Of a stretch of 64,000 bases of DNA, positions 1-50,410 are shown piece after piece; position 1 is the first letter of the stretch, and each line of letters starts with the position of its first letter. The translations under genes were made by a program, and so were the position numbers. The stretch covers positions 24,502-88,501 of the forward strand of contig CAYVWZ010000002.1 in assembly GCA_964455655.1 (NCBI GenBank). The letters run 5' to 3'. Origin of the DNA: Candidatus Woesearchaeota archaeon (GTDB lineage Archaea > Nanobdellota > Nanobdellia > SCGC-AAA011-G17 > JACPNG01). Under the pieces are notes generated by a model that saw only the letters and a list, made by a program, of their open reading frames with translations, was not told where the DNA came from and did no database searches.

Positions 1-1435
1 AATACTTATCACCCTTGTTGTAGTCATACTTGCTATCTTTCCAGGACTAAGAGATCCATTAGGCTCATTAGGAGTATTAATCAAAGGATATACTGATAGC
101 TTCAAAGAGTTTAGATCAAAACCTGATTCAGTTAAAACCCAAGAAGAAGCAACAGAATTCAATAATAGAATAACTAGAATACTTGAAGGATCAGGAACTT
201 GTGAAGGATATAAAGAAGTACAAATAATTTATAGTAAAGCAAAACGCATAGGAAAACAAGAACCACCAACATGGGAAGTATGCACTCAAAACAAACAAGG
301 AAATGTCTTAACCACTGATACCAACAAATATTGCGACAAAATCTCTGATGCACCAAAACAAGAAGTTTCATACTTTAAACAATACATACAGTGTCTAATA
401 AAAGGAAGAGATAGCACCTTAGAAACTTGTCAACAAGCAGATACTGAAGCAGATAAATTCTTACAAAATAATGGGCGATACAACCCTCAATCAGTATTCG
501 CAAAAGAAAATCCTCATGAAGTGTACGTTGCTGTTGGAGATTGTTATTTTAGAATAGGGACTCAACAAAGTCTGGTAAAAGCTAAAGCCACGTATGAAAA
601 GTATCAAACTTACGCAAAAAATAATGGGGCTGTATCTAATCCAGCAACACAAAGTCAAGTACAAACGAAAATACAAGAGTTAGAACAACAAACAAATCCG
701 AACTTATGGGAAACTGTTAAGAAAGAATATCAAGGAGATCCTGAAGCAGACTTTAATAAAGCACTAGGCGATTATCGCGCTAAGAATTATGTTTTTGCTG
801 AGCAGGAATTTAAAGATCTCGTTGTGCAGTCAGCAAGTGTCAGTACTGAATCAACAGCGTTGAAACAGATTGTAGCAAATTCTGTATACTTTATCGGAAC
901 TTCTCAACGCTTACAAAATGGCGTAGACTCTCAAGCAGTATGCGATAAACTAACAACTTCAACAGACATTATTACTTTAGATTATCCTGGATCTACATTC
1001 TTATCTCAAACAGAGATGGTTGGTCCTATAAAACCACAAGCCCTTTACGAGACTGCTCACTGTTTCAAAGAACTTCCAAGTTTAGACGCACAGGAAAAAT
1101 CACAAAAATACTACATATTGCTGTTAGAATCTTTAAACTTTAATAGAGATGATCCGCTCATACAAAATGCTATAAAAGACCTTGATCCTCACTGTAATAC
1201 CATAGAACAAAACTCTGCAATGTTTGAAGATGAAGGAAATTGCTTAGCTCAAAATGATTATCTTCGTAATAAGATTCCTGCAACATCTCCTCTAAGGAAA
1301 AATTTATTCTGCTATTGGGATACTAACACACCATTCTATACTGACGGTATTTGCCAAGCATGTTCTCATATCGGTGCACCTCAAGCAGATTCTAGCTCAA
1401 CTAATTCAGATTACACTTACAATAGCGCATGCTAA
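1..1435 (+). CDS. hypothetical secreted Cys-containing protein, 5' end outside window
   Basis: Frame 2 is open from base 2 to the stop at 1433-1435 (read directly: ILITLVVVILAIFPGLRD...). The track ORF 521..1435 starts at an internal GTG. No catalytic motif recognised. Confidence 0.45.
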   Translation, partial: ILITLVVVILAIFPGLRDPLGSLGVLIKGYTDSFKEFRSKPDSVKTQEEATEFNNRITRILEGSGTCEGYKEVQIIYSKAKRIGKQEPPTWEVCTQNKQGNVLTTDTNKYCDKISDAPKQEVSYFKQYIQCLIKGRDSTLETCQQADTEADKFLQNNGRYNPQSVFAKENPHEVYVAVGDCYFRIGTQQSLVKAKATYEKYQTYAKNNGAVSNPATQSQVQTKIQELEQQTNPNLWETVKKEYQGDPEADFNKALGDYRAKNYVFAEQEFKDLVVQSASVSTESTALKQIVANSVYFIGTSQRLQNGVDSQAVCDKLTTSTDIITLDYPGSTFLSQTEMVGPIKPQALYETAHCFKELPSLDAQEKSQKYYILLLESLNFNRDDPLIQNAIKDLDPHCNTIEQNSAMFEDEGNCLAQNDYLRNKIPATSPLRKNLFCYWDTNTPFYTDGICQACSHIGAPQADSSSTNSDYTYNSAC

Positions 1436-1591: not shown

Positions 1592-2041
1592 ATGGTAAAA
1601 AAAAGGCAGAGTAAGAAAGGCCTTGAGTTAAGTATCAATACAATCATTATTCTCGTTATTGTTGTCGTTGCACTCGTAGCAATTGCAGCATTTTTCTTCG
1701 GAGGATTCGGAAAACTCACTGATAGTATCAAAAATGTCTTCTTTGGAGCAAGTGGAGGATACGATAAAACCCTAGCAATTCAAAATTGTGAAACGTATTG
1801 CGATCAATTACAAAGTCTAGGCGATAGAATAGATAGTGATGCACCAGACTCTGCATATTGTACAAGATCTTTTGATGTAGACACCAATAATGATGGAAAA
1901 GCTGACAAACGATTCTATTGCTCAGATAGTGCATCCGCTGCAGTTATAGACCAAGAACTCCCTGATTATATTACCAGTAGAGATAGCCTCGATGTAAGCT
2001 GTGGAAAACCATCTGGTGGAATTATCACTTGTACTCAATAA
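1592..2041 (+). CDS. archaeal type IV pilin-like protein (class III signal peptide), Cys-containing C-terminal domain
   Basis: N-terminus MVKKRQSKKG-LELSINTIIILVIVVVALVA has a basic stretch, a KG cleavage motif and a hydrophobic helix, as in archaeal prepilins. Confidence 0.6.
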   Translation: MVKKRQSKKGLELSINTIIILVIVVVALVAIAAFFFGGFGKLTDSIKNVFFGASGGYDKTLAIQNCETYCDQLQSLGDRIDSDAPDSAYCTRSFDVDTNNDGKADKRFYCSDSASAAVIDQELPDYITSRDSLDVSCGKPSGGIITCTQ

Positions 2042-2074: not shown

Positions 2075-2650
2075 ATGACATCAAAAAAAGGATCAAGTAT
2101 CATTCTTACTTTTATTATAGGACTTGTTGTTGGACTTATGGTGGTAGCATTTCTTGCCAAATTTAATCCGCTTCTCTTTAGTTTATTCCCTGGAGGAGAA
2201 GATAGTAAAGAATCATTTCAAGAAATAACAGCTAAAATTATTTCTCTTCGTTCAGGGGAAGCAGCACAATACAATCTTAGAATTGCTAAAGGAGACGTAC
2301 TTATAGGATTTAGTAAAGCACAGACAGAAAATGTTGAAAGTAATAAATTCACCTCGACAGTAATAGGACCTATTGAACGCCCTGAAACTCTTTGTCCCAT
2401 AGATCTTACTTGTATCTGTTTATGTGACTCAAAAGTAAAAGCACCAGGAACGTGTAAAACTCTTGATACACAATGCTCAAAACTCGAAGGAATAGAACGC
2501 ATAGAAGGAATTATTGTTGATGACGAAGGAAAAGAAGTAAGAAAATCACAAGACGAACTCTTTATCAAAGGAAAAGCAAATATTCTTCTCTCATTACAAT
2601 TAGGAAAAGACAATATTCTTAGTGTGAAGGTCCCTGAAAACACTTCGTAA
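2075..2650 (+). CDS. archaeal type IV pilin-like protein (class III signal peptide)
   Basis: N-terminus MTSKKG-SSIILTFIIGLVVGLMVVAF. Same operon and strand as the neighbouring pilin-like genes. Confidence 0.55.
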   Translation: MTSKKGSSIILTFIIGLVVGLMVVAFLAKFNPLLFSLFPGGEDSKESFQEITAKIISLRSGEAAQYNLRIAKGDVLIGFSKAQTENVESNKFTSTVIGPIERPETLCPIDLTCICLCDSKVKAPGTCKTLDTQCSKLEGIERIEGIIVDDEGKEVRKSQDELFIKGKANILLSLQLGKDNILSVKVPENTS

Positions 2651-2681: not shown

Positions 2682-3734
2682 ATGTTTAAAAAAGGAGGAT
2701 TAGGTAGTGTACTCTTTCTCGTTCTCGAACTCACATTTCTCATTCTCCTTGTAGGAGGACTTGTAAGCAAAGTCCATGATCAAGCTGAAGGAAGAACTTA
2801 CGAAAAAAAATATTTTGCAAGAGACTTCGCACTGCTCTACGACACCTTACAATTAAGCAATTATCCATTAAGTGCTGATTATCAACTCCTCAAAGACAAG
2901 TACAAACTCAACATTACACAGAAAGGAGACTATTTCTATGTCGACATAACCACATTCGGAGAATCTTTTGCGAATAGATATCCCATTATTGTACATAAAG
3001 ACTTTGTCATACCCTCAACACAATTAGGAAAAGACGGAATACAAACATTGACCATTTCTGGAAATGGACAAGTTATTGGAGTAGGACAGAGCTATGACAC
3101 AGGAGAAATAAATCCCGCACTCTTTAGTAGACAAGAAGGAACTCTAGACTACCCTGTTAAAACAACAGACAGAACAGTAACTTCCTGCTTCGGATTACGA
3201 GGAGATGCACTCAATGAAGAAAACGAACCAGAATCCATAGACTGCCACAAGAAAGGAACACACTGTGGAGTAGACTTCAGAGCAAGAAACTCAGAAAAAG
3301 CAGTAGCAGTAACAGACGGAACTATTACCGCAGTACTCTTTGGAGAAAACAATTGGGGAACAATCATATTAAGACCTGATGGTATAGACAATGTTGAATT
3401 TGTCTACTTACATTTACGAAGTTTTTGCCCAACACCAGGGACATGTATCAAAGAACAACAGCATGTAAACAAAGGAGATGAAATAGGAATTACAGGAAAT
3501 ACCGTACCCTCATGGTATAAAGGAACAATCTATCCACACCTCCATTTTGAAATGATTTATGACGAAACAAGAAATCAAAATGGAGAAATAATCTCTGATA
3601 AGAAAAAAGTAGACCCCCTTGCATCAGGATTATTTAATCTCAAAGAAATAAACTTTAAACAAGGAATAAATTGCGATTTGAATAAAGAAGCATACTCCTA
3701 CAGAGAAGATATTGAACGGGGAATCGGGCCATGA
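2682..3734 (+). CDS. M23 (LytM/lysostaphin-like) metallopeptidase domain protein with pilin-like class III signal peptide
   Basis: N-terminus MFKKGG-LGSVLFLVLELTFLILLVGG. C-terminal region has the HxxxD motif (HCGVD) and HxH motif (HLHFE) with M23-type spacing (FGLRG...HCGVDF...DGTITAV...YLHL...GNTV...PHLHFE). Confidence 0.7.
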   Translation: MFKKGGLGSVLFLVLELTFLILLVGGLVSKVHDQAEGRTYEKKYFARDFALLYDTLQLSNYPLSADYQLLKDKYKLNITQKGDYFYVDITTFGESFANRYPIIVHKDFVIPSTQLGKDGIQTLTISGNGQVIGVGQSYDTGEINPALFSRQEGTLDYPVKTTDRTVTSCFGLRGDALNEENEPESIDCHKKGTHCGVDFRARNSEKAVAVTDGTITAVLFGENNWGTIILRPDGIDNVEFVYLHLRSFCPTPGTCIKEQQHVNKGDEIGITGNTVPSWYKGTIYPHLHFEMIYDETRNQNGEIISDKKKVDPLASGLFNLKEINFKQGINCDLNKEAYSYREDIERGIGP

Positions 3735-4282
3735 GCGAGTCAGACATTCCATTCAAAGAAGGAGGAGAATGGTATTTTATTCTTTACAGACTAGGACTAG
3801 CAATAATTGTCGTTGCAATAGTGTTAGTGATGACCAGCAAGTATGAGGGAAGAGACATTGACGTAACACCATTAGAATCAGAACTCCTCCTTGATAGAGT
3901 GTATTACTCAGCAACGTGCTTTGCTGCTAACGACAACATACGAGGATATGCAGGAGAACTTGATATGGACAAATTCACTCAAGAACAACTCACTACATGC
4001 CTTCATGGACCCTTCTATATTAAAGTTGAATTACTCAACCAGAAACAAATACTCTATAATGATGAAGATCTGTATATACGCAACGAACCCTACTGCAAAT
4101 TCTCAACATTTACTTGCACAACAAGATTAGTTCCCGTACTTATTAGAAACGGAAAAATTACAACAGACACCCTCAACATCACTGTTATTATCCCAAAACA
4201 AGATAGAGACCAAACTATTGATACAAGCATTACACCCATAGAACCATCAATACCTTCAGACAAAACAACGAGGGCTGGATGA
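3731..4282 (+). CDS. hypothetical membrane-anchored protein
   Basis: ORF overlaps the previous stop (ATGA-type coupling). One TM helix (FILYRLGLAIIVVAIVLVM). Confidence 0.45.
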   Translation: MSESDIPFKEGGEWYFILYRLGLAIIVVAIVLVMTSKYEGRDIDVTPLESELLLDRVYYSATCFAANDNIRGYAGELDMDKFTQEQLTTCLHGPFYIKVELLNQKQILYNDEDLYIRNEPYCKFSTFTCTTRLVPVLIRNGKITTDTLNITVIIPKQDRDQTIDTSITPIEPSIPSDKTTRAG

Positions 4283-4824
4283 AAAAACTCAACAAGAAAG
4301 GATTCCTTGAAGAATTCATGACCGAATTCCTAGCAGCAGTTGCAATAGTAATTATTGTGATAGTATTCGGACTCTTATTCAATTTCGCAGGAGCATTCAA
4401 AGTATTACCAGAAGTTACTCTTACTCTTGCAGAAACTGATGCAAAAATCATTCATCTTGTCTATCTCAAAACTCCCTATGAAGACGGAACCGTAAGCGAT
4501 GAACTCATTCGTATAAGCATGGAAGAAGATGAGAGAAAACAAGAAGAGAGAATAGCAAAACTCCAAGAATTCAATACAGAATTTATTAAACCCTATCCAG
4601 GAATGGTCATTAACGGACGTATTCAAACAAAAGAAGACAACATCCTTCTCAAACCAGTCTATTCTGAATCACGAGAAAAAGAACCAACACTCTTACAAAA
4701 ATCCTCTGAAAGCACTATTACTCTTCCCACACCAAAAGGAGATATTAATGTGAGTATTGGATTAGTCAATATTTACGATATCCAAATCTATAAGCCCTCA
4801 TCAGGTGAAATCAATGAACATTAA
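4279..4824 (+). CDS. archaeal type IV pilin-like protein (class III signal peptide)
   Basis: N-terminus MKKLNKKG-FLEEFMTEFLAAVAIVIIVIVFGLLF. Overlaps the neighbouring genes. Confidence 0.5.
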   Translation: MKKLNKKGFLEEFMTEFLAAVAIVIIVIVFGLLFNFAGAFKVLPEVTLTLAETDAKIIHLVYLKTPYEDGTVSDELIRISMEEDERKQEERIAKLQEFNTEFIKPYPGMVINGRIQTKEDNILLKPVYSESREKEPTLLQKSSESTITLPTPKGDINVSIGLVNIYDIQIYKPSSGEINEH

Positions 4825-6250
4825 GCGAGACAAGAGAGGATTAGTATTTGGACCCTATGCTGCTGCAGCACTCCTCGGATTACTTACCTATGCACTCATT
4901 GCCTTTGTAGGAAATCCCCTTCCAACACCTCAAGAAATTGGAAGCATTCAAGCAGAACTTATCAAAAATATTGGCACAGCAGAAGCACAACATTATTATC
5001 AAGAAAAACTTGCAGAACAAAGCACAACAGAAACTCTCTACTCCTTAAGCAAGACAAGCGGACTCTCACAAGAACAAATTAGACAGTGCGATAGAGGAGA
5101 TGGCATTTATGTATACAATGAACAATGCAATCCCACAAAAGCAATCCAGGAAAACTTCTTAAAAAATTTCAAACTCATCCATGATGAAAAACTAAAAAAA
5201 CAATCCATTAGCATTACCTCTTATTCTTTAGAACATAATACGCTCATAGGAACATATCGAATTATTGGAATTACAGGAGCACAACAATCTTACAACATCC
5301 AAAATAAACTTACTACAGAAAAAACACCTGGAAAAATACTTACAGCACCACCAACATATCCCGAATGTTCCCCTGGAACCTCAAGAGATCAATGCTATAA
5401 CAAACTCATTTCAGAAATAGCACAACGTTATGGAATGGATCCTCTTATGATCAAATCAATCATCAAAGTAGAATCAGCATTTAATTCAACAGCAAAATCT
5501 TCTGCAGGAGCACTAGGATTAATGCAGCTCGTTCCTTCATCAGCAATAGCAGATCTTAAAGACACAAGATACTCTGCAGGAAAGTATTGCAATGCACGAG
5601 GACTGAAAGAAGAAATTATTAATGATCCTAACCTCCTTAATGGAGACAATCCCTCTATATTCACTCCAGCAGTTAATATTGAACTAGGAACTTGCTACTA
5701 CGCATTCCTCTATGATCATTTTAATGGAGATCATCAATTAGCACTTATTGCATATAATCAAGGAGTTGGTGCAACAGAGAGAGCTCAAGGAAATCCAACC
5801 AATGCAGAAACAACAGATTACATTAACAAAGTCCTTACCGTCTATCATGCTTCTGAAAATAAAGACTTAACATTTATTACACTCACAAACCCTACACTTC
5901 CTTCTAAAATAACTGGAAGAGCTGTTGAAGAAGTAAAAGAGCAAGCCCCCTCAAAAATTATAGGAAATATCTATGTTGATTATAGTTTCAATGTAAGCGT
6001 TCGCGGAACACTCGATGACTACAAAAATATTTACGAAACTACGCAAGAAAAAGGAAACTGCCTCCTCGGAGATAATCCTCAATCATGCTACCATAATGAA
6101 CACGGTTATACATGGAAAGTTACGATGAGGGAGGGATATCCATTAATTACTGTTATAACCTCTACAAGAGATCCATTACACCCATCGCGAGAACCTGTAA
6201 CCATAACATTCTATGCAGATCCTCAATGGTTAAAAAATCCTAATCCTTAA
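4805..6250 (+). CDS. lytic transglycosylase (SLT/GH23 lysozyme-like domain) protein, N-terminal membrane anchor
   Basis: SLT signature YGMDPLMIKSIIKVESAFNSTAKSSAGALGLMQLVP...ALIAYNQGVGA with the catalytic ES. Confidence 0.7.
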   Translation: MKSMNIKRDKRGLVFGPYAAAALLGLLTYALIAFVGNPLPTPQEIGSIQAELIKNIGTAEAQHYYQEKLAEQSTTETLYSLSKTSGLSQEQIRQCDRGDGIYVYNEQCNPTKAIQENFLKNFKLIHDEKLKKQSISITSYSLEHNTLIGTYRIIGITGAQQSYNIQNKLTTEKTPGKILTAPPTYPECSPGTSRDQCYNKLISEIAQRYGMDPLMIKSIIKVESAFNSTAKSSAGALGLMQLVPSSAIADLKDTRYSAGKYCNARGLKEEIINDPNLLNGDNPSIFTPAVNIELGTCYYAFLYDHFNGDHQLALIAYNQGVGATERAQGNPTNAETTDYINKVLTVYHASENKDLTFITLTNPTLPSKITGRAVEEVKEQAPSKIIGNIYVDYSFNVSVRGTLDDYKNIYETTQEKGNCLLGDNPQSCYHNEHGYTWKVTMREGYPLITVITSTRDPLHPSREPVTITFYADPQWLKNPNP

Positions 6251-6277: not shown

Positions 6278-7696
6278 ATGCCTAAGAAAAAAAGAGGAAT
6301 ACGAGGAAAGAGAGGAGAACAGAACTTAGGAACACCTCAACGAGTAGAAATAGACTGGAAAAATCCTTTCACTTCAGCACCATCAGAACGAGAACCTATT
6401 GTTGTTCAAAATACTATTCACGCAACACTCAAAAAAGATAAGGGAATATTCGGAGACTTTGCAAAAAAACTCATACTTACAGCAATCATTGTAGCAGTGT
6501 TATTTTTCTTCTTGTTCATTTTTACCGATTGGGGTCCCTTACTCGTAACCAATGGAGGAATATATTTTCAAAAAGCAATTGCAATAGTCTCCACAACAGC
6601 TGGAGGAATTAGAACCACATTAACAAACCCTGGAGAAACATTCGGGTCATGGGATAATCCAGAAGCAACGAGACTAGGCTCAGAAGAGAGAGGAGTATTC
6701 ATAAGTTCATTTAAAGCGCAGAGAGATTATGAACAAGGACAACAAGCAGACCTTCAAGGACAAGTACTTATTAAAAATCTAAAAGATACTCGTCCAATGA
6801 GTCTTAAAGTTTCATGCTATACAAAATATACTCCCCCTGGAACAATAGAACCAGAAATTACTCCAGGACTTGTAACGATACCCTTATTTCAAAAATCAGA
6901 ACCTCTAGAATTACAAGAAATACTTGTTGATCCTGAAGCACTTACTATTCTCAAAAACGGAGGAGAATTCCAATTCGGTGTTCATTGCATTATACCAAAA
7001 GAAGCATCAGATAGTGTTGTATACACTGGAGATAATACTCTCATTACAAGAGAAGCAATATTACGTATAGACTATAGAGCACAAACACAGTCCCTACTTA
7101 AAGTTGTAACATCTCCATCTCCCTATAGCAAAGACCAACTCGATAATCTCGCACTCTCTTTACGAAATCAAGGAATTGTTTCGAGAGAGGGAAAACTCGG
7201 AGCACAAACATCAGGAGGTCCTTTAGATCTCCAGGTAGACCTTGGAATCGCACAACCACTTACACCAGGTTCATTCCCTACTGAAGGAATACAAACCATT
7301 CCACTAACTATCGGACTCACTGATAGTCAAGGATGGGAAGGACAACTTACAAGCATTTACAACATTGAAATCTTAGGATTACCAAATTTGCTGAGGATTG
7401 ATCAGGGATGTAGAGACTTTGAACGAGGAAGCGGATTGCATGGCGAGCCTGCACTAAAACAAGAAATTATCCAAGAAGTAAATGATTGCATTAAAGAATT
7501 ACAAGATGATTCAAAAGCACAATGCGCATATAATCCTAGAAGATTGCGAGAAGCATTCTCATGCCAACTAAAACTCGAAACTCTTGGAGAAACTCCAAAC
7601 GTTCAAGATATTGTTGTTGAAGCAGACTATGATTACAGTATTAGCCAAAAAGGCGGAATTAATTATCAAAAACCACGAGAGAGTAGTACTCCTTAA
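6278..7696 (+). CDS. hypothetical membrane-anchored secreted protein
   Basis: Basic N-terminus followed by a TM helix (LILTAIIVAVLFFFLFIF). No recognised domain. Confidence 0.45.
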   Translation: MPKKKRGIRGKRGEQNLGTPQRVEIDWKNPFTSAPSEREPIVVQNTIHATLKKDKGIFGDFAKKLILTAIIVAVLFFFLFIFTDWGPLLVTNGGIYFQKAIAIVSTTAGGIRTTLTNPGETFGSWDNPEATRLGSEERGVFISSFKAQRDYEQGQQADLQGQVLIKNLKDTRPMSLKVSCYTKYTPPGTIEPEITPGLVTIPLFQKSEPLELQEILVDPEALTILKNGGEFQFGVHCIIPKEASDSVVYTGDNTLITREAILRIDYRAQTQSLLKVVTSPSPYSKDQLDNLALSLRNQGIVSREGKLGAQTSGGPLDLQVDLGIAQPLTPGSFPTEGIQTIPLTIGLTDSQGWEGQLTSIYNIEILGLPNLLRIDQGCRDFERGSGLHGEPALKQEIIQEVNDCIKELQDDSKAQCAYNPRRLREAFSCQLKLETLGETPNVQDIVVEADYDYSISQKGGINYQKPRESSTP

Positions 7697-7740: not shown

Positions 7741-8658
7741 ATGAAAAAGAGTGTTATTGTTATTCTTCTCGTAGCAATTCTTCTCACAGGATGTACCTTT
7801 GTTAATAATTTAACACCAACAACAAGACAAGCAGCAACAGCAGAAACACCACATAAAGGAATATCTGTACAATCAATAGGATCAGTAACAAACCAAGATA
7901 CAAATCCTGTCCCCTTAACAGAAAATTTTCCTTACACCTACGGAGCAGTTATTAGAAATTATGACCTTAATCCATTACTCGTAACCGTAAGATTAAGCGA
8001 TGGTACTGATGATGCTTATGGTGGATTAGAAGAATATGGAGAAAGCACCTTGTTTTCAGACATGATGATTGACACAGGGGAAGAACTCACTGTTGGTCCT
8101 ACAAAATTTAGTTATCGTCAAAGATCACAAAGCATCACCACATTTCCTGTACCCGTATTTCAAACCTTTGCAACTTATGACTACAGCTTAAAAACTGGTG
8201 ATGCAGTAAAAATACCCACTATACCAGAACATTGCACAAGTGGAAGAGAAAATCCAGAACGAGAAAACATCTGCGATGTTAGGATACAACCCACAGCAGG
8301 AAATAATAATGTAGCACCCATTAGAGTTGAAGATATTTCAGCAAACTTCATTCCTGAAGACGGAGCAGTATCAGCAACAGTAAGTCTGAGACTACAAAAT
8401 GTTGGCGGAGGGTACATCCCCGATTACACATTAAATCCTATAGCTGTAAATGTAGCTATTGATGGCTTTGCGCCATTCACTTGCATACCAGAGGAAATCT
8501 ACTTAAAAGAACTCTCTGCAGATGTACAATGTACATCTTATGCTACTAACCTTAAAGCAGGAAGAGCTGAACCAAAAGTACTTACAATTGCAGCAGGCTA
8601 TCGCTATGAAATAGCTACAGGACAATTAACAGGAGAAATAATCAACACAGAGGAGTAA
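7741..8658 (+). CDS. hypothetical lipoprotein
   Basis: Signal peptide with lipobox-like LLTGC (MKKSVIVILLVAILLTGC). Confidence 0.5.
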   Translation: MKKSVIVILLVAILLTGCTFVNNLTPTTRQAATAETPHKGISVQSIGSVTNQDTNPVPLTENFPYTYGAVIRNYDLNPLLVTVRLSDGTDDAYGGLEEYGESTLFSDMMIDTGEELTVGPTKFSYRQRSQSITTFPVPVFQTFATYDYSLKTGDAVKIPTIPEHCTSGRENPERENICDVRIQPTAGNNNVAPIRVEDISANFIPEDGAVSATVSLRLQNVGGGYIPDYTLNPIAVNVAIDGFAPFTCIPEEIYLKELSADVQCTSYATNLKAGRAEPKVLTIAAGYRYEIATGQLTGEIINTEE

Positions 8659-8664
8659 AATAAC

Positions 8665-9642
8665 ATGCAAGACTACAACGCAATCATAGCAAAAATAATG
8701 GAAACAACAGGAAAATCACGAGAAGAAATAGAAGCAAAAGTACAACAAAAAGTATCACAATTATCAGATCTTGTAAGCAAAGAAGGAGCAGCGCACATTG
8801 TTGCAAATGAATTCGGTGTTAAAGTCTACACCCCTGAAGTAAAACAACGATATCGCATCAATGAATTAAAACCAGGACTACGAAGCGTTGAAGTCGTCAT
8901 GAAAATCGTACAAAAATACGAAGTACGAAGTTATTCACGAGATAATAGATCAGGAAAAGTAGCATCAATACTCGCTGGCGACGAAACAGGAATGATACGA
9001 CTCGCAGTATGGGACGAAACCCTCATTAACAAAATACAACAATCAAAAGAAAATGATATTATTCTTATCGAAAATGCTTACGTCAAAGAAAATAATGGTT
9101 TCAAAGAATTACACATAGGAAATAAAGGAAGCATAGAAGTTAATCCTAAAGGAGAAAATGTTGGAACTGTAAGCGCAGCAAAGAAAGAACAAGCATCTTA
9201 CGAACAAAAAAAACTCAACTCCCTACGCCCAGGAGATAGTGCAAGAATAACAGGAACTATCGTACAATTATACGAACCACGATTCTACCAAGCATGCCCT
9301 GATTGCAGTAAGAAAGTCGTCGATGGAAAATGCCCCTCACACGGAGCAATACAGCACGTCTTTGTACCTATCTTAAACTTTGTCTTAGATGATGGAAGCG
9401 ACAATTTACGCGTAGTATGCTTTAGAGATACTGTAGAACAAGTCCTAGGCGTAGGAAAAGAACAAGTAGAAAATATTAGAAAAAATCCAGCACTATTCCA
9501 AGAATATTTACGAACCATACCAGGAAAACAATATACCATCACAGGAAAAGCAACAAAGAATGAAATGTACGACAGAGTAGAAGTCACAGCAAATACTGTA
9601 GAAGCACTAAACGTTCACGCAGCATTACAAGAATTACTCTAA
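8665..9642 (+). CDS. replication protein A (RPA)-like ssDNA-binding protein with OB fold and C4 zinc ribbon
   Basis: N-terminal helical region (EEIEAKVQQ...LVSKEGAAHIVANEFGV), an OB-fold-like segment (ILAGDETGMIRLAVWDE) and the zinc ribbon CPDCSKKVVDGKCPSHG. GGAGG-like RBS upstream. Confidence 0.6.
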   Translation: MQDYNAIIAKIMETTGKSREEIEAKVQQKVSQLSDLVSKEGAAHIVANEFGVKVYTPEVKQRYRINELKPGLRSVEVVMKIVQKYEVRSYSRDNRSGKVASILAGDETGMIRLAVWDETLINKIQQSKENDIILIENAYVKENNGFKELHIGNKGSIEVNPKGENVGTVSAAKKEQASYEQKKLNSLRPGDSARITGTIVQLYEPRFYQACPDCSKKVVDGKCPSHGAIQHVFVPILNFVLDDGSDNLRVVCFRDTVEQVLGVGKEQVENIRKNPALFQEYLRTIPGKQYTITGKATKNEMYDRVEVTANTVEALNVHAALQELL

Positions 9643-13587: not shown

Positions 13588-14367
13588 ATGCCAGACAAAG
13601 AGAGGAACACTATGTCAAGTAATGACCCTATAGGAATTGAACATCTTTTAGATGATAGCACAGATCCATTCATGACCGCTCATCAAACTGTCGATCGCGC
13701 TTTTGACAAACTTGCTACATTAATACCAAGAAATCTTAGAACTCAAGCATTCTCTATTTTAGCTCAAGCACGCGATGCACACGAAACACAAAGAAAAACA
13801 TATGGAGAACGACGTGTTGAAGCAATAGTTGATCCACTCACTAGAGTCTTTAACAAAAAAGGTTATCATGAAGTAGGCGATCTATGGTTAAGCGCTGCTC
13901 AAGATCTCTATAGAGAATCAGGACAACAACTTACTGGTGCTTTAAGTGTTCTAGATCTTAATTACTTTAAAAATATTAATGATAGATATGGTCACGCAGT
14001 AGGGGACGAATTACTTTCAAACGTAGGACAAGCACTTAATGAAGTTACACGATCTACAGATACACCTCTTCGAGTAAAAACACGAGAAGCAGCAGCACGC
14101 ACTGGAGGGGACGAGTTCGCAATCCTTCTTTTAGCAATACCTGTCCAAGGGCATGAAACAGTGCTCAGCAACGTACAAGACCGTATCAATAGAAGAACTG
14201 CACAATTATTTAGTCAGAGTCATCCTCAAATTTATGCTGATAACACCACTCACTTAAACGCTATTGCAAGTATGGGCAGCGCAGTCTACGGCCCTGATGG
14301 AGAAGACCTTTTTGATCTCTTTAAAGTAGCTGACAGAAATCTCTATAAAGTTAAAGCAAAGCGCTAA
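13588..14367 (+). CDS. GGDEF domain protein (putative diguanylate cyclase), no obvious sensor domain
   Basis: DPLTRVFN...LSVLDLNYFKNINDRYGHAVGDELL...RTGGDEFAILL...ADRNLYKVKA carries the GGDEF hallmarks with an intact GGDEF motif. No RxxD I-site. Confidence 0.75.
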   Translation: MPDKERNTMSSNDPIGIEHLLDDSTDPFMTAHQTVDRAFDKLATLIPRNLRTQAFSILAQARDAHETQRKTYGERRVEAIVDPLTRVFNKKGYHEVGDLWLSAAQDLYRESGQQLTGALSVLDLNYFKNINDRYGHAVGDELLSNVGQALNEVTRSTDTPLRVKTREAAARTGGDEFAILLLAIPVQGHETVLSNVQDRINRRTAQLFSQSHPQIYADNTTHLNAIASMGSAVYGPDGEDLFDLFKVADRNLYKVKAKR

Positions 14368-18285: not shown

Positions 18286-19023
18286 ATGCAATCAAAGAGG
18301 AAGGGGCAAACAACCATATTTGTTACAGTAGGAATACTCATTCTTATTATCATTAGCATCGGAGTCTACTACAGAACAACACTCAAAGACGCAATCCTAC
18401 CACAAACAAATCCCACTACCTTTAGTGATGAAGAAGAAAACGTTAGAAACTATGTAGAAGAATGCTTCCAAGACGGATTACAAAATGCCGTATTCTTAAC
18501 ACAGAAACAATCAGGACATTTGTACATTTCAGGAGAGACCTTTAATCTACACGGCGCAGAAATACCCTACGCATACACCCAAAATGGAAGCCAAGTATTA
18601 AACTCTGAAAGTCTAGAATCACAGTTCCAACAATACCTCATACAACAACTCTTCCAATGCACCAAACCATTAAACGTTACCTTCGAACAACCTGCAACAA
18701 CCGTTACTATCGATACTGAAGGAGTAAACGCGCGACTCATTTACCCCTTTACCTTAAGCCTTGCACAATCAAACATACGAAATGATTACCCCTACACCTA
18801 CGCTATCAAAGTACCCCTCTATAGTTTTCTAAAAATAACTCAATCTGTAGCGGATGCACTCGTCAGTCAACCACAAGAATTTCCTCTAGGATTATTAGTT
18901 AGCCAAAATATCTTCAAAACAGAGACTGTCATACTTGACAACGCAACACTTATACAATTAACACCACTCAACGCAACAAATGAAACTTACATTATCGCTG
19001 TAGAAAATGGTGATACTCAATGA
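18286..19023 (+). CDS. archaeal type IV pilin-like protein (class III signal peptide RKGQ-TTIFV)
   Basis: [27 protein letters not shown]. Shares a conserved E-x-C-x-x region with the 45114 and 50411 proteins. Its stop overlaps the next start. Confidence 0.6.
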
Positions 19024-21284
19024 AAAAAACAATACTCATCGCATTACTCATTATCATCTTAAGCTCTAGCACTCTCGCTGTCGCAAACTTAGAAAACTTT
19101 GCAGCACTGACCTTTAATCAATACGGAGCAATGGGAATAGAAAAAGCAACAGGAAGTAGCGAATCAGCACAACTCATCGCAAGCTTTGTTGGAGGGGACC
19201 CAACAACAGCAGCATTAAACGCATTTCTCGCACAAGCAGGAAAGAAAGATCCCGATATAGGACAATTACAACAACTTGCAACATGCACTGTTAACCCCCT
19301 AGGATGTGCACAAAGCCAAGTATTAGAACAAACAATGAAATCATTAACACCAGAACAAGCAAAAGCAGTAAACCTCCTAAGTCAAGTCCAAGGAAATGCA
19401 CAATTAGTTGAAGCACTCTTTGAAAAAGGAGAAGAAGGAACCGCAAGTGTTACCGAAAAAGGAGATCTAATCCTTAAAGATGATAAAGGAAATATTCGTT
19501 TACGCCTACCACCAGATACAAAAATAGAACAGGATAAAGAAAATCCTAACAAATATACTTTAAATTCCATGCAAGGAAAAGAAGCGCACTTCTTAGATCA
19601 AACAATAAGTGGTGCTGAAAGCTTAACACTCACTAGAAATCCAGAATTAGGAATAGAAACCATCACCATAACAAAAGGAACCAGTATAACTTATTGTACT
19701 GAGACAGGAACAAATTGTTTAAGTAATCTTGGAGAAGGAACAATCATAACCTCTCACATTATCGATAGAGCTGATGGAAAAAAAGCTACACTTCTCGCTA
19801 GACTACAAACAAAACTTGAGAAAGATACTCCTCACATCACCATCGACGGATATACCTATGATGACCTCAAGAAAGGAGATGTCATTAACTTTGCACGCTC
19901 TGACAATGGACCTAACGAACTAAGAATGATCAGAGCAAATGACGCGTATTCTTTAATGCTCGATGACCAAAAAACAGTCTATGGAAGCTTCGCAATCACA
20001 CGAGAATCAGGAAGAGATCAATACATGACATTATTCACCGGAAGCAGACTTGATACCAACGCAGGAATACCCAATAATGATGTAAGCATTCAAACAAAAG
20101 AACCAATCTACATCAATCTCAATGCAAACAATCTCAATAACTGCGGAGAACGCTGTGCAATAAGCATTATTGGAAATAAATTAACATCAGAACAACTCTC
20201 ACCCTTAACCACTATAATAAAAAAAATTAATGGAGCAGAAGCATACAAACTGACCCAAGCATCAGGATTCACCGTATTTTTAGATAGCAATACTATAAAC
20301 TTCAAAGAGAACGCAGACGCAAGAATAGAAACACAGGGAATAGAATATCACTTCCATAACGGAATGCTCAATCCTGTAACTATAGGAGAAACAGCAATCA
20401 CAAAAAATCTCAAAAACCATCCGACCATCACCTATACTGATATGAACGGACATCAAATGTCAGCAGCACCAACTCAAAGAGGAAATGATATACTCATAGG
20501 ATTTGCTCTAGAAAATGGAGAACTACAAAACACCTTCGCAGTAGAAGAACCCCTACCTGTAGAAGAAAAAGCTATTGATGAACTCCTTGAAAGAGACCAA
20601 GTAACTGCAGAAGAAATGCCTTGGAGCCTCCCACTCGTTACAGAATATTCTTGTAAAGATGGAACAAGAGTTGTATCTAAATCTGTCCACCAACATGATT
20701 CTGTATTCACTGAAGTTGCACCACGTTATGGATACGACCCATCAATACCAAAAGTCGTAATGGATTTAGAATCAAGCGGAAGACCCACAGCATTATCCCC
20801 TCAAGGAGCATATGGACTTATGCAGATCCAAGACCCTACCATGAGAGGACTATTACGAAAACCAACAGGAGACATGTGTAACTCCCTAGGAAAAGTTCAA
20901 GACACAAAACCAGGAATTTACTGCGCATGTAAATTTGATCAATACCCACCAGTAGGAGACTCAAAAAAACTTAGAGAACAAGCAAAACCAGCAGTAGATA
21001 GAGCACTCTGCTATTTACGATACAATGAAGCTGTTTTCATAGAAAAAGGAATTCTAAAAGAAACCGATTCCCAAGAAAAGAAATTAGCATTCTCTCTTGC
21101 AGCATACAATGCAGGACCTGATAAAGTTGAAAAATATGGAGGAGTACCACCATTCAAAGAAACACAGAAATTTGTAGAATGTATAACAAACTATGCAAGT
21201 TCTGTTCAATTAGCACGCACAGACCTCTTAGCTGGACAACAAATAGCTAGTGCTAGACCACCACCAACATCATCAGGCGGTTAG
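19020..21284 (+). CDS. large secreted protein with C-terminal lytic transglycosylase (SLT) domain
   Basis: Signal peptide [25 protein letters not shown] motifs [34 protein letters not shown] and [12 protein letters not shown]. Confidence 0.7.
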
Positions 21285-22126
21285 CGTAGAATTAACAATA
21301 CAAGATTACCTAACCATAACGTTATGATCAATGCAATAAAGAACGAAGGAACAAACGGAATACCATCCTTTACAAGAACTCTTTTTACTTTTAATTTCTT
21401 TAATAAATTCATTTGCTGCTTAGAAACACCAGGTTCTTTCATTGAATAAATTAATTTACCTTTTACAATAACATCTTCAGCAATCCAATCACCCTCTGTA
21501 AGATTTTTTACTTTCAAACGCCTAAACATACACGTTGTTTCTACTGTTTTAACAAAGAGATAGAGAACAACATACCCCATAGATATTCCCCCAAGTATTA
21601 AGAATAATGTGCTATAAATAGTATTTCTCACTGCAAAACTTCCAAGAAGAAATAATACCCCTAAACCACTAAACACCTCACACTGAACTCTAACCTCTTT
21701 AAAGATTCTTTTCAGACCATTGAAGAAATGCCTATGATAACGAATAGCAAGATATATACTCCATACAATTCCATACCCTGCTCCAACAATAACTAGATTT
21801 ACTAAGAAATGAAATAAAAACCATGGTACTATAGAAATAGAACCAAACAATGCTCCAACACCCATCAATAATTTTGTGTCTCCACCACCCCATTGTCGAG
21901 AATAGTACAATCCTTCACCAATAATAGCCATTACTGCTAGACCAACTAAACCAGCAAAAAACATCATCACATCATGTTCAACAATAGCACCAATAGCTCT
22001 TATACCAAGCCCTGCAGCAATTAAACTAAAACTAATCCAATTAGGAATTTCACGACGCTCAATATCCGTTATAGAACCAGCAAATAATCCAACAAGGCCT
22101 ACAATAATAAGAATAAGCTCAATCAC
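21281..22126 (-). CDS. archaeal prepilin/preflagellin peptidase (A24 family, PibD/FlaK-like)
   Basis: Polytopic membrane protein with the two Asp motifs ([12 protein letters not shown] and GGGDTKLL, the GxGD type). Confidence 0.7.
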
Positions 22127-26288: not shown

Positions 26289-27584
26289 ATGCTTCGTAAC
26301 AAAAAAGGTGTTGTAACTCCTACTGCTGGAACTGACATTGCAGCGCTTGTTCTTCTCATAGGACTTTTCATTGTAGCATATGTTCTTCTCCTTCCTCCCG
26401 CAGATCGTGATCAACTTCTTAAAGAAAATCCAAACTACAGAGATGGAAATGGAAGTTATGGTGATTATGGCCCCATTAACGGAATAAGTTTACTCAGCGC
26501 AATACCCGGAGAACTACATCCCTTTGAAAGAAACACTATCAAAAGAGATTTTCCACCAGCAATACTTTTCACAAGAGCAGAATCTAGCACTCTTAATTTA
26601 GCAACAGCATTAGAAGTAAAAAAATCACCCTTTAGCGAACAAACAAAGACCTACACCTTCTCAGCAGATAGACTAGAAGATATTACCGGAGCAAAACTCT
26701 ACTTCTTCATAGAAGAAGGAGACGGCACATTCTACATAGAACTTAATGGACAAACCATCTTTGAACAAGAAATAGGAAGCAACGATATCCCCATTGACAT
26801 CCCCGCAAACGCACTACGCGCAAACAATAACTTAAAGATGGGAGTGAGAGGAAGCTTATGGGAAGGATACAAACTCAAAAATGTCTACATCAAGTTTGAT
26901 AAAAACTACGCAAACACCATCGTACGAAGAAGCTTTGAACTAAGCCCAAATGAACGAAACGGCGTAGAAAGCGCAAAACTCAGTTATTATCTTAATTGTA
27001 TAAAAATAGCACAAAACGGCTACTTAACCATACTCCTCAATGATAGAATACTCAAATCAGACTTTGTTGTCTGCGATGTAGGAAAACAAACAATAGACCT
27101 ACCAAGAGAAAAACTACGAACAGGAACAAACAATCTCGAATTTAGAATAGATCAAGGAGACTATGAATTAAACGACCTTACTCTTGAAGTAAAGACAGGA
27201 CAAGCAAGCTATCCAACCTACAACTTTGAAGTTGATGATGACTACTACTTCGATATTAATACAGACTGCTTCGCAAGCTGTAGAGATAATTGTTATGATG
27301 ATTGTGGAAGCGACAACGACTGCTTCGATGTATGCCTCGATGACTGCGACGCAGAATGCTCAAGAGGAGAAGTAGTACTTGAAATACGATTCGTTAATGA
27401 TGAAGACAATAGAAGAAAGAAAGGATCAATAACTATCAATGATAATCAAATTAATTTCAATACAGACGATACACTCTACACAAGAGATATTACAGACACC
27501 ATACGAAGAGGAGATAACGTACTCAAAATAATACCCCAAAGTGATATGGAAATCGCAGATCTCAGAGTCGTGCTTATACGATAA
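26289..27584 (+). CDS. hypothetical membrane-anchored secreted protein with a compact acidic Cys-rich module
   Basis: N-terminus MLRNKKG-VVTPTAGTDIAALVLLIGLFIVAYVLLL is a possible class III signal. Internal module CFASCRDNCYDDCGSDNDCFDVCLDDCDAECS. Confidence 0.45.
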   Translation: MLRNKKGVVTPTAGTDIAALVLLIGLFIVAYVLLLPPADRDQLLKENPNYRDGNGSYGDYGPINGISLLSAIPGELHPFERNTIKRDFPPAILFTRAESSTLNLATALEVKKSPFSEQTKTYTFSADRLEDITGAKLYFFIEEGDGTFYIELNGQTIFEQEIGSNDIPIDIPANALRANNNLKMGVRGSLWEGYKLKNVYIKFDKNYANTIVRRSFELSPNERNGVESAKLSYYLNCIKIAQNGYLTILLNDRILKSDFVVCDVGKQTIDLPREKLRTGTNNLEFRIDQGDYELNDLTLEVKTGQASYPTYNFEVDDDYYFDINTDCFASCRDNCYDDCGSDNDCFDVCLDDCDAECSRGEVVLEIRFVNDEDNRRKKGSITINDNQINFNTDDTLYTRDITDTIRRGDNVLKIIPQSDMEIADLRVVLIR

Positions 27585-50377: not shown

Positions 50378-50410
50378 ACTTTAATAAGCATCATAGCGCC
50401 ATCACAACAT

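What the first reader, a model, noticed from the sequence alone, without database searches (positions are those of the whole stretch)
2682..3734. M23 metallopeptidase fused to an archaeal prepilin-type signal peptide
The N-terminus MFKKGG-LGSVLFLVLELTFLILLVGG is a class III signal. The C-terminal half carries HCGVD (HxxxD) and HLHFE (HxH), with lysostaphin/LytM-type spacing. Bacterial M23 enzymes use Sec/Tat signals; targeting through the archaeal type IV pilin pathway is an unusual domain combination.
Basis: seen in the sequence. Interest (0 to 1): 0.6.

Follow-up and report, generated by a model that had tools for sequence, protein, structure and literature searches.

The report
Cell-wall-cutting enzyme on an archaeal pilin
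A tiny DPANN archaeon (Woesearchaeota) encodes a bacterial-cell-wall-cutting M23 peptidase on a pilin-like stalk, inside a conserved pilus-assembly gene cluster that also holds a pilin-like lytic transglycosylase, which suggests a pilus or surface device armed to breach bacterial walls.

Summary
Window 2682..3734 (+) is a 350-aa ORF with an intact M23 domain (Pfam E 2.7e-12; HCGVD, YLH, HLH) and the N-terminus MFKKG-GLGSVLF.

The N-terminus is a 137-residue pilin-like module, not just a signal. It has a 5-residue leader, with K3 and G5 invariant in 14/14 relatives. AlphaFold predicts a ~52-residue helix, a beta-sheet and a flexible linker before M23.

The gene lies in a conserved Woesearchaeal type IV filament locus: a FlaI/TadA-type ATPase, a polytopic platform-like protein, then about 12 genes nearly all starting [KR][KR]G plus a hydrophobic helix. 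One of these is a catalytically intact SLT transglycosylase. An A24 prepilin peptidase lies at 21281..22126.

In a distant syntenic locus the N-module lacks M23, and M23 sits on the carrier that holds SLT here. Carriers are fixed and payloads are swapped.

Best reading: a modular (pseudo)pilin that displays peptidoglycan hydrolases against bacterial walls. Cleavage, filament incorporation and target remain unproven. A fold search did not match the N-module to solved pilins.

This is a new variant of known kinds: modular pilins, class III-targeted enzymes and archaeal peptidoglycan hydrolases.

The parts
1..1435 (+). 3' part of a 499-aa pilin-like gene. Its start (MRRKKVTKG|RIDISTIIYLLL) lies 64 nt before the window start.
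   Evidence: L002 7255..8754 is the same gene in a strain 99.3% identical to the window. The leader motif was scored.
1592..2041 (+). 149-aa pilin-like protein (MVKKRQSKKG|LELSINTIIILVIVV), a candidate major subunit.
   Evidence: The N-terminus is almost identical in L005 and recognisable in L088. There is a weak N-terminal match to bindosome BasC (E 0.042).
2075..2650 (+). 191-aa pilin-like protein (MTSKKG|SSIILTFIIG).
   Evidence: There is a weak DUF7287 hit (E 0.029).
2682..3734 (+). The finding: a 350-aa modular pilin-like M23 metallopeptidase.
2682..2696 (+). Predicted class III leader MFKKG (residues 1-5), with the predicted prepilin-peptidase site after G5.
   Evidence: K3 and G5 are invariant in 14/14 relatives. 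The truncated gene call of P0003 regains MNKKG when started 5 codons upstream (the 325-aa cluster member P0079). It aligns with the archaellin leader MAKKG.
2697..3092 (+). Pilin-like carrier module (residues 6-137): hydrophobic alpha1-N (6-28), a continued helix to residue 58, then a 7-stranded beta region.
   Evidence: AlphaFold predicts H7-35, H38-58 and strands from 63 to 137, with pLDDT about 79. The module also occurs without M23 in P0012, P0045, P0060 and the L089 296-aa protein (hhalign probability 97.6%, E 3e-12).
3093..3143 (+). Flexible linker (residues 138-154).
   Evidence: pLDDT is below 50 for residues 140-150. This region varies in length in alignment A1.
3144..3731 (+). M23 endopeptidase module (residues 155-350). 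It includes H194/D198 (nt 3261-3275), H244 (3411-3413), H286/H288 (3537-3545) and a conserved C-terminal tail (SNC..N..Y.Y).
   Evidence: Pfam E 2.7e-12, Foldseek E 7e-9, motif positions, conserved tail and C169.
3731..4282 (+). 183-aa bitopic membrane protein. Its start overlaps the M23 stop codon by 4 nt.
   Evidence: It is conserved at the same position in L001, L005, L007, L088 and L089.
4279..4824 (+). 181-aa pilin-like protein (MKKLNKKG|FLEEFMTEFLAAV).
4805..6250 (+). 481-aa pilin-like lytic transglycosylase (MKSMNIKRDKRG|LVFGPYAAAALLG). The SLT domain spans residues 201-338 and carries E222-S, GLMQ and AYNQG.
   Evidence: Pfam SLT E 2.9e-22, motifs. The KKG/KRG leader is present in the orthologues of L001, L005 and L007.
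6278..7696 (+). 472-aa membrane protein of the locus, with a basic N-terminus and a transmembrane segment near residue 60. Function unknown.
   Evidence: It is conserved in L001 and L005.
7741..8658 (+). 305-aa predicted lipoprotein (MKKSVIVILLVAILLTGC). It is the last gene of the locus before the RPA gene.
   Evidence: It is conserved in L001 and L007.
21281..22126 (-). Prepilin (class III signal) peptidase of family A24, the candidate processing enzyme.
   Evidence: Pfam Peptidase_A24 E 1.3e-12, 48.5 bits, above the cut-off of 26.5. NCBIfam FlaK_Arch E 1.6e-11. It has 8 hydrophobic segments and a GxGD motif at residue 80.

Best explanation
The gene encodes a modular pilin-like protein of a Woesearchaeote (DPANN archaeon). 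Its parts are a 5-residue basic leader (MFKKG), a hydrophobic alpha1-N helix, a small helix-plus-sheet carrier module, a flexible linker and a catalytically complete M23 zinc endopeptidase. The proposed mechanism has five steps. (1) The precursor inserts into the membrane. (2) The A24 prepilin peptidase encoded at 21281..22126 removes MFKKG. (3) The FlaI/TadA-type ATPase and polytopic platform protein encoded just upstream of the window assemble the processed protein, through its N-terminal helix, into a type IV filament or short pseudopilus. About ten other pilin-like products of the operon assemble with it. (4) The M23 module, and the SLT transglycosylase carried on a second pilin-like carrier two genes downstream, are thereby held outside the archaeal envelope. 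(5) There they cut the peptide cross-links and glycan strands of bacterial peptidoglycan, for attachment to, feeding on or killing of bacteria. Shown here: the M23 and SLT domains with intact catalytic motifs, the conserved leader motif, the module architecture, the conserved operon, and the presence of the peptidase, ATPase and platform-like genes. Inferred: leader cleavage, incorporation into a filament, enzymatic activity, and bacterial murein as the target.
For: M23: Pfam E 2.7e-12. The LytM catalytic residues align. Foldseek matches solved M23 structures at E 7e-9. H194, D198, H244, H286 and H288 are all present.

Leader: K3 and G5 are invariant in 14/14 relatives. The leader has the same form as the archaellin MAKKG|A and as mapped archaeal sites (PMC4371748).

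Architecture: AlphaFold gives a helix over residues 7-58, a beta-sheet, a disordered linker and then M23. This is the lollipop-plus-graft layout described for bacterial modular pilins (PMC8179133).

Locus: the same gene order is found in five loci whose M23 proteins are only 31-54% identical. The order is ATPase, then a ~700-aa polytopic protein, then small pilin-like genes, then M23, two more genes, SLT and further genes. L002 is 99.3% identical to the window. The ATPase matches TadA and FlaI models at E 2e-33 and 1e-32. The platform protein gives a sub-threshold but full-length T2SSF match (E 0.015), and its only PDB hit is PilC (E 0.51).

Leader distribution: the leader motif is in 30/45 locus genes against 5/52 other window ORFs. 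Sec and lipoprotein signals in the same window look different.

Processing enzyme: an A24 peptidase is in the window.

Payload swapping: the N-module occurs without M23. The M23 module occurs on a different KAQ/KGQ-leader carrier that resembles the N-terminus of the window's SLT protein.

Target: M23 and SLT are conserved together, and both act on murein. DPANN lytic transglycosylases and archaeal M23 enzymes have been proposed or shown to act on bacteria (PMC8204110; PMC9723730; PMC12352652).
Confidence: 0.55

Rival explanations
1. Uncleaved signal-anchor. The N-terminus is simply a type II membrane anchor, with basic residues inside and one transmembrane helix. The M23 domain is tethered to the archaeon's own membrane as a surface enzyme or as an accessory part of the pilus machine. 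It would be comparable to bitopic PilN/PilO/GspL-type or FlaF/FlaG-type components and would not be polymerised into a filament.
For: No curated pilin model hits. No structural match of the N-module to solved pilins. Several locus proteins (183 aa and 472 aa) lack a clean leader motif and are probably bitopic components. Residue +1 Gly is atypical.
Against: The positive-inside rule alone does not explain the invariance of Gly5 across relatives with otherwise unconserved N-termini. The same [KR]G motif occurs on about 10 consecutive genes. A dedicated A24 peptidase is present. The predicted helix of about 52 residues followed by a sheet is pilin-like. Payload swapping between carriers fits the modular-pilin pattern.
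Confidence: 0.25
2. Housekeeping or assembly role. M23 and SLT would serve the machine itself, as VirB1, PrgK, BfpH or Neisseria Mpg do in bacterial T4SS and T4P, or would remodel the archaeon's own envelope or process pilins. They would not attack other cells. The locus could be a relic of a bacterial system.
For: In bacteria, SLT and LytM enzymes are commonly encoded with secretion and pilus machines. The PrgK LytM domain is among the structural matches, and Mpg/NGO1686 is required for full piliation (PMC3735123, listed). The top ATPase match is a TadA 'conjugal transfer-associated' model.
Against: Archaea of this group are not known to make murein (established knowledge; not testable in 64 kb), so there is no wall of their own to open. 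The leaders are archaeal in type (K-G, no bacterial G|FTLIE). The locus is chromosomal, has the host's GC content, and is syntenic next to RPA and RadA genes in distant Woesearchaeota. This argues for long residence and selection rather than a relic. Both catalytic sites are maintained.
Confidence: 0.12
3. Ordinary Sec signal peptide. The hydrophobic segment is removed by signal peptidase I and a soluble M23 enzyme is released, like Tat- or Sec-secreted archaeal peptidoglycan hydrolases.
For: Archaeal peptidoglycan hydrolases with Sec or Tat signals exist (PMC12352652). The second SLT protein of this window (19020..21284) has a Sec-type signal.
Against: The hydrophobic stretch is about 22 residues and continues as one helix to residue 58, which is too long for a Sec h-region. 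No conserved AxA-type site follows it in the family alignment. The residues after the helix (F.K.FLARD.AL..DTLYLS) are the best conserved part of the N-module, so they are unlikely to be discarded.
Confidence: 0.05

Closest known systems
Bacterial modular type IV pilins (Streptococcus sanguinis PilB and PilC; Raynaud et al. 2021, PMC8179133)
   Same: Class III leader ending in Gly, a hydrophobic alpha1-N helix, a small pilin module, a short linker and a grafted functional module not specific to pili. The gene is encoded with the pilus machinery.
   Different: The leader here is archaeal (basic, K at -2). The payload is a peptidoglycan hydrolase. In the held part of that paper's Dataset S1, M23 (IPR016047) appears once, in an irregular multi-domain protein, and SLT not at all. 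Incorporation into a filament has not been shown here.
[quoted passage not shown]
   Same: Non-pilin functional proteins are targeted by an archaeal class III signal and depend on a dedicated ATPase/platform locus with small pilin-like proteins (PMC3387779). The window's ATPase and 149-aa protein give weak BasE and BasC matches.
   Different: The payloads are lytic enzymes rather than solute-binding proteins. The taxon is DPANN rather than Sulfolobales. The matches to Bas models are far below their cut-offs, so this is not a Bas system.
Archaeal antibacterial peptidoglycan hydrolases (Woldo and Danwoldo of Halogranum salarium; Strock et al. 2025, PMC12352652)
   Same: An archaeal M23-domain enzyme whose only plausible substrate is bacterial murein. 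That survey recorded M23 in four Nanoarchaeia genomes.
   Different: Those enzymes have Tat or Sec signals and peptidoglycan-binding domains and are released as soluble proteins. This protein has no detected binding domain, so it falls outside that survey's 'modular PGH' definition. It has a prepilin-type N-module and sits in a pilus operon.
Large extracellular SLT-domain proteins of Woesearchaeota and Pacearchaeota (fam00969, AR20; PMC8204110, PMC9723730)
   Same: Same lineage and the same inferred purpose: binding or degrading bacterial walls, with a possible bacterial host or prey.
   Different: Those are very large Sec-type proteins not linked to pilus genes. The window has one such protein (19020..21284, 754 aa). 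The locus SLT (4805..6250) is a different, pilin-like form.
Peptidoglycan hydrolases of bacterial secretion and pilus machines (VirB1, PrgK with LytM+SLT+CHAP, BfpH, Neisseria Mpg/NGO1686)
   Same: SLT and LytM/M23 enzymes are encoded with, or required for, an ATPase-driven envelope-spanning filament machine.
   Different: In bacteria they open the producer's own wall. Here the producer is an archaeon with no known murein, and the enzymes themselves carry the pilin-type N-terminus.
LytM and lysostaphin catalytic domain (MEROPS family M23B)
   Same: HxxxD, catalytic His and HxH motifs, and the same fold.
   Different: There is about 20% identity only. This protein has lineage-specific insertions and a conserved Cys-containing C-terminal tail. 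Its substrate specificity is unknown; the nearest NCBIfam models are MepM and Pgp3, far below their cut-offs.

Membership tests
Peptidase family M23 (PF01551; LytM/lysostaphin type) | Significant match to the family HMM above the curated cut-off | tested here: met
   E 2.7e-12, 47.1 bits against a cut-off of 28.7, residues 193-295.
Peptidase family M23 (PF01551; LytM/lysostaphin type) | Zn ligands HxxxD and HxH plus the catalytic His | tested here: met
   H194, D198, H244, H286 and H288 are present. They align to LytM and ORF007.
Peptidase family M23 (PF01551; LytM/lysostaphin type) | M23 fold | tested here: met
   In the AlphaFold model the M23 region (about residues 155-350) has pLDDT mostly 82-97, with dips near 171-190 and 291-310. 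Foldseek against PDB gives 61 hits at E <= 1e-3; the listed top 50 are almost all M23/LytM proteins.
Peptidase family M23 (PF01551; LytM/lysostaphin type) | Endopeptidase activity on peptidoglycan cross-links | not testable with these tools
   This needs purified protein and sacculi.
Archaeal class III (prepilin) signal peptide / type IV pilin-like protein | Short N-terminal leader with a charged residue at -2 and Gly or Ala at -1 | tested here: met
   MFKKG|G. K3 and G5 are invariant in 14/14. Compare the mapped sites KG|Q, KG|I and RA|L and the archaellin MAKKG|A.
Archaeal class III (prepilin) signal peptide / type IV pilin-like protein | About 20 hydrophobic residues right after the site, forming the start of a long alpha1 helix followed by a beta-sheet head | tested here: met
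   Residues 7-28 are hydrophobic. AlphaFold predicts a helix over 7-58 with a kink at 36-37, then 7 strands.
Archaeal class III (prepilin) signal peptide / type IV pilin-like protein | Structural or sequence similarity to known pilins or archaellins, or a match to curated pilin or class III models | tested here: not met
   There are no Pfam or NCBIfam pilin hits, even at E <= 10. The best Foldseek PDB hit is E 0.33 and is not a pilin. The profile search against PDB sequences gives only a non-significant archaellin leader match (E 0.28). Pilins are notoriously divergent, so this weakens the claim but does not exclude it.
Archaeal class III (prepilin) signal peptide / type IV pilin-like protein | Prepilin peptidase (A24) encoded by the organism | tested here: met
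   Window 21281..22126 (-): PF01478 E 1.3e-12, above the cut-off. FlaK_Arch E 1.6e-11.
Archaeal class III (prepilin) signal peptide / type IV pilin-like protein | Genetic linkage to an assembly ATPase and a platform protein | tested here: met
   A T2SSE/FlaI/TadA-type ATPase and a ~700-aa polytopic protein lie upstream in L002 (99.3% identical to the window), L005 and L088. The platform assignment is sub-threshold only.
Archaeal class III (prepilin) signal peptide / type IV pilin-like protein | Cleavage by the prepilin peptidase and polymerisation into a filament | not testable with these tools
   This is experimental.
Modular type IV pilin (sensu Raynaud et al. 2021) | An N-terminal pilin module joined by a linker to a domain that also exists outside pilus biology, with the module able to occur on its own | tested here: met
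   There is a linker at residues 138-154. The N-module occurs alone or with other C-termini in P0012, P0045, P0060 and the L089 296-aa protein. The M23 module occurs on another carrier.
'Modular PGH' as defined by Strock et al. 2025 (catalytic domain plus peptidoglycan-binding domain) | Presence of a recognised peptidoglycan-binding domain (LysM, PG_binding_1, SH3 and others) | tested here: not met
   Pfam finds only PF01551, even at E <= 1. The protein would therefore be missed by that census.
Sulfolobus bindosome assembly (Bas) system | Matches to BasE and BasC at family level, and class III sugar-binding proteins as cargo | tested here: not met
   BasE scores 50 bits against a cut-off of 1000. 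BasC has E 0.042. No solute-binding proteins are in the locus.

The most novel reading that the evidence does not exclude
The locus encodes a 'lytic pilus'. In this reading, a type IV filament carries tip or shaft subunits that are themselves murein hydrolases (an M23 endopeptidase and an SLT transglycosylase on interchangeable pilin carriers). A Woesearchaeote would use it to dock onto bacteria and drill through their cell walls. This would be a dedicated contact-dependent apparatus for cross-domain predation, parasitism or uptake of bacterial material, possibly including DNA. It would also be concrete genetic evidence that some DPANN archaea have bacterial hosts or prey.
Probability: 0.3. 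Interest if true: 0.85.

Novelty: new variant of a known kind. Interest (0 to 1): 0.62.

Why it matters
Whether any DPANN archaea live on bacteria, and how, is an open question. So far the argument rests mainly on the presence of murein-degrading genes (PMC8204110, PMC9723730). Archaeal peptidoglycan hydrolases were shown to kill bacteria only in 2025, and in that survey 68% of them lacked a recognised (Sec/Tat) signal peptide (PMC12352652).

This locus offers a specific and testable delivery route. Two complementary murein hydrolases are built onto pilin-type carriers, and both lie inside a conserved pilus-assembly operon with a cognate prepilin peptidase nearby.

It would extend the 'modular pilin' principle from adhesion to enzymatic attack, and from bacteria to archaea. 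It would also show why surveys based on Sec/Tat signals and peptidoglycan-binding domains miss such enzymes. Finally, it supplies defined proteins (residues 155-350 here, and the SLT domain of 4805..6250) for activity and host-range tests.

Tried and rejected
Homolog searches that gave little:
- The word-indexed search with the full protein found only the identical protein and one relative.
- The same search with the N-module profile found 3 fragments.
- The exhaustive phmmer search was what revealed the family.

Locus searches in GTDB species genomes:
- Alignment A1 had no stretch conserved enough to search with.
- Alignment A2 matched 78 pattern sites, but none was a relative.
- The family is therefore rare or absent among species representatives. 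I used RadA instead to place the organism.

Structure:
- Foldseek of the N-module gave no pilin match.

Curated models:
- No pilin or class III Pfam or NCBIfam model hit any locus protein.

Platform protein:
- Only sub-threshold evidence was obtained: T2SSF E 0.015 and PilC E 0.51.

Other attempts:
- The FlaFind paper (PMC1797317) is not held, so I could not apply its exact rule.
- The bacterial promoter/terminator scan was uninformative for an archaeon.
- The look-up of P0013 found no record, and the P0047 contig had no DNA available.

Readings considered and rejected:
- Recent horizontal transfer or a mobile element. GC content is uniform and synteny next to RPA and RadA is conserved.
- A degenerate, non-catalytic LytM factor. 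All five catalytic residues are present in this protein, although a few relatives (P0004, P0006, P0017) have lost one or two.
Full report
OBSERVATION. Window 2682..3734 (+) is a 350-aa ORF starting MFKKGGLGSVLFLVLELTFLILLVGG. Pfam PF01551 (Peptidase_M23) matches residues 193-295 at E 2.7e-12 and 47.1 bits, above the gathering cut-off of 28.7. Phmmer against PDB sequences aligns HCGVD and HLHFE with the Zn-binding HxxxD and HxH of LytM and phage ORF007. All five catalytic or ligand residues are present: H194, D198, H244, H286 and H288. An AlphaFold model built on a 15-sequence family alignment has mean pLDDT 79, mostly 82-97 across the M23 half with dips near 171-190 and 291-310. Foldseek matches it to solved M23 enzymes at E down to 7e-9: 6jmx, DipM, lysostaphin, LytM and the PrgK LytM domain.

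ORGANISM. The window encodes archaeal RPA (Rep_fac-A_C), SRP54/FtsY and a DHH-CID protein, with RadA visible in related loci. RadA is up to 77% identical to Candidatus Woesearchaeota and Nanoarchaeia MAGs, and essentially all of the best 80 genome hits are labelled that way or are mislabelled bins. Relatives of the M23 protein are annotated 'M23 family metallopeptidase [Candidatus Woesearchaeota archaeon]'. GC content is a uniform ~0.34-0.42.

THE N-TERMINUS IS A WHOLE PILIN-LIKE MODULE. An exhaustive phmmer search of 1.84 billion representatives found only 74 hits at E <= 1e-3. About 13 of these are full-length relatives of 300-360 aa with 27-54% identity. Three proteins share only the N-terminal ~135 residues. 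In the N-module alignment, K3 and G5 are the only invariant positions, in 14 of 14 sequences, while the hydrophobic segment is free to vary. One apparent exception, P0003, is a truncated gene call: five codons upstream it reads MNKKG, and a 325-aa member of its cluster exists.

This leader has the form of experimentally mapped archaeal sites (KG|Q, KG|I, KA|I, RA|L; PMC4371748). When the N-module profile is run against PDB sequences, the top match, although not significant (E 0.28), is the Pyrococcus furiosus archaellin leader MAKKG|AVGIGTLIVF. AlphaFold predicts helix 7-35 and 38-58, that is, one ~52-residue helix with a kink. Seven strands follow (63-137), then a disordered linker (140-150), then M23. 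This is the 'lollipop plus grafted module' layout of bacterial modular pilins (PMC8179133).

GENOMIC CONTEXT. The window begins inside the locus. Contig L002 is 99.3% identical to the window over 13.7 kb and extends 7.3 kb upstream. It shows the following order. First comes a T2SSE ATPase (Pfam E 9e-14; NCBIfam TadA E 2e-33 and FlaI E 1e-32). Next is a 726-aa polytopic protein whose second cytoplasmic repeat gives a full-length but sub-threshold T2SSF match (E 0.015) and whose only PDB hit is PilC (E 0.51). Then come several small membrane proteins. After these is a run of genes of 36, 294, 49, 42, 499, 149, 191, 350 (M23), 183, 181, 481 (SLT), 472 and 305 aa.

Ten of those 13 genes start with [KR][GA] followed by a hydrophobic helix. 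Over five related loci the figure is 30 of 45 genes, against 5 of 52 other ORFs in the window. Four of those five are themselves KRGQ- or KKG-type pilin-like genes. By contrast, Sec and lipoprotein signals in the same window run MKK-hydrophobic-...-C/A with no glycine. Genes overlap or abut on one strand (3731/3734, 4279/4282, 4805/4824), which indicates an operon.

The same gene order, including M23 - two genes - SLT, recurs in L001, L005, L007 and L088. Their M23 proteins are 54%, 40%, 34% and 32% identical to the query by phmmer. The locus usually lies next to the RPA gene. A family A24 prepilin peptidase is encoded at 21281..22126 (-): PF01478 E 1.3e-12, above the cut-off, and FlaK_Arch E 1.6e-11.

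A SECOND HYDROLASE AND PAYLOAD SWAPPING. The 481-aa protein at 4805..6250 has an SLT lytic transglycosylase domain (E 2.9e-22) with the catalytic E222-S, GLMQ and AYNQG motifs. It carries the leader MKSMNIKRDKRG|LVFGPYAAAALLG. Its orthologues in L001, L005 and L007 also carry KKG leaders.

In a more distant Woesearchaeote (L089, GCA_038884615.1) the syntenic locus, again beside RPA, is arranged differently. It contains the N-module as a 296-aa protein without M23 (hhalign probability 97.6%, E 3e-12; no Pfam domain). There the M23 module (Pfam E 3.7e-23) sits on a different carrier with a KAQ leader, at the position of the SLT gene. A member of that second group, P0047, matches the query's M23 module at E 2e-18. 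Its N-terminal region matches the N-terminus of the window's SLT protein at E 0.002. The carriers are thus stable positions in the operon and the hydrolase payloads move between them. This is the behaviour expected of modular pilins, and it is hard to reconcile with an incidental membrane anchor.

MECHANISM. Most likely (confidence about 0.55), the precursor is inserted into the membrane and its five-residue leader is removed by the A24 peptidase. The processed protein is then assembled through its hydrophobic alpha1-N helix, by the upstream ATPase and platform, into a type IV filament or short pseudopilus together with the other pilin-like products. This places M23 (peptide cross-links) and SLT (glycan strands) outside the archaeal envelope. 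Both enzymes are murein-specific and are conserved as a pair in an organism not known to make murein, so the inferred substrate is bacterial peptidoglycan. This fits earlier proposals for DPANN lytic transglycosylases (PMC8204110; PMC9723730) and the demonstration that a haloarchaeal M23 enzyme kills bacteria (PMC12352652).

Shown here: the domains, motifs, leader conservation, module architecture, operon, peptidase, ATPase and payload swapping. Inferred: cleavage, polymerisation, activity and target.

Rivals: an uncleaved signal-anchor or machine component (0.25), a self-directed or assembly role as in VirB1, PrgK or Mpg (0.12), and an ordinary Sec signal (0.05). The evidence for and against each is given in the Rival explanations section.

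COMPARISON WITH KNOWN SYSTEMS. In architecture it works like a bacterial modular pilin (PilB and PilC of S. sanguinis). In targeting it works like the Sulfolobus bindosome cargoes, which are class III signals on non-pilin proteins with a dedicated ATPase/platform locus (PMC3387779). It is a member of peptidase family M23; all testable features are met. It is not a Bas system, since matches are far below the cut-offs. It also falls outside the 'modular PGH' definition of Strock et al., because no peptidoglycan-binding domain was found. That survey considered only Sec and Tat signals. In the held part of Raynaud et al.'s catalogue of 264 bacterial modular-pilin architectures, M23 occurs once, in an irregular multi-domain protein, and SLT not at all. 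Neither Makarova et al.'s census of archaeal type IV pili nor the DPANN papers I read mention pilin-type hydrolases. My literature searches found no description of this arrangement, but the library is incomplete.

VERDICT. Novelty: a new variant of known kinds. Each ingredient is known (modular pilins, class III-targeted enzymes, archaeal and DPANN murein hydrolases). What appears undescribed is their combination in a conserved Woesearchaeal type IV filament operon with two interchangeable hydrolase payloads. Interest is 0.62. A specialist would find it notable, and it makes the question 'do some DPANN attack bacteria, and how?' directly testable. Nevertheless, the key steps (cleavage, filament display, target) remain inference.

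Noticed in passing
window 13588..14367 (+): A 259-aa protein with a strong GGDEF diguanylate cyclase domain (Pfam E 8.7e-28). It is also present in the sister strain L002. Cyclic-di-GMP signalling is typically bacterial and unusual in an archaeon. It lies about 5 kb downstream of the pilus-type locus.
   Followed up: no
window 18286..22126: A second small cluster of three genes. The first is a KGQ-leader pilin-like gene (18286..19023, MQSKRKG|QTTIFV). The second is a 754-aa SLT-domain protein with a Sec-type signal (19020..21284, Pfam SLT E 1.8e-11). The third, convergent and overlapping by 4 nt, is the A24 prepilin peptidase (21281..22126). The window therefore carries three murein hydrolases in all.
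   Followed up: partly
window 45114..56076 (+): Two giant predicted surface proteins with MopE-type Cu-binding repeats: 45847..49794 (1315 aa) and 50869..56076 (1735 aa, 5 repeats, E 5.5e-32). Each is immediately preceded by a small gene with a canonical archaeal class III leader (45114..45860 MIMHKRG|QVTIFV; 50411..50872 MNKRG|QVTVFV). This pilin-plus-giant-adhesin pairing may be another filament-associated module.
   Followed up: no
L002 5961..7258 (upstream of the window start); equivalents at L005 6280..7554: Three conserved mini-genes of 36-49 aa consist of little more than a KKG leader and one hydrophobic helix (MKKG|AFDYTSGTIVGLIIF..., MSKKG|EWYLDETGKLIIG..., MKKG|EFTFGNVVSLILIA...). 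Most locus proteins have an acidic residue within +1 to +6 of the predicted site, reminiscent of Glu5 of bacterial pilins.
   Followed up: partly
window 7741..8658, 27639..28586, 37978..38547, 44118..45074: Four proteins start with bacterial-style lipoprotein signals ending in a lipobox-like L-[TVA]-[GA]-C (LLTGC, LTAC, LVAC, ITAC). I did not look for a lipoprotein-processing pathway in this archaeon.
   Followed up: no
window 26289..27584 (+) and 39914..41200 (+): Two further large proteins (431 and 428 aa) have N-terminal leader-plus-helix signals (MLRNKKG|VVTPTAG..., MQKRENQNTLFILVG...) and no Pfam domain. They are further candidate class III-targeted surface proteins outside the main locus.
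   Followed up: no
L089 10001..11242 and 7846..8736 (Ca. Woesearchaeota GCA_038884615.1): In this distant syntenic locus the M23 module sits on the other carrier, and the N-module homologue carries an unknown ~155-residue C-terminal region with no Pfam match. P0045 (317 aa) likewise has the N-module with an unrelated C-terminus. These unknown payloads may be further effector domains.
   Followed up: partly
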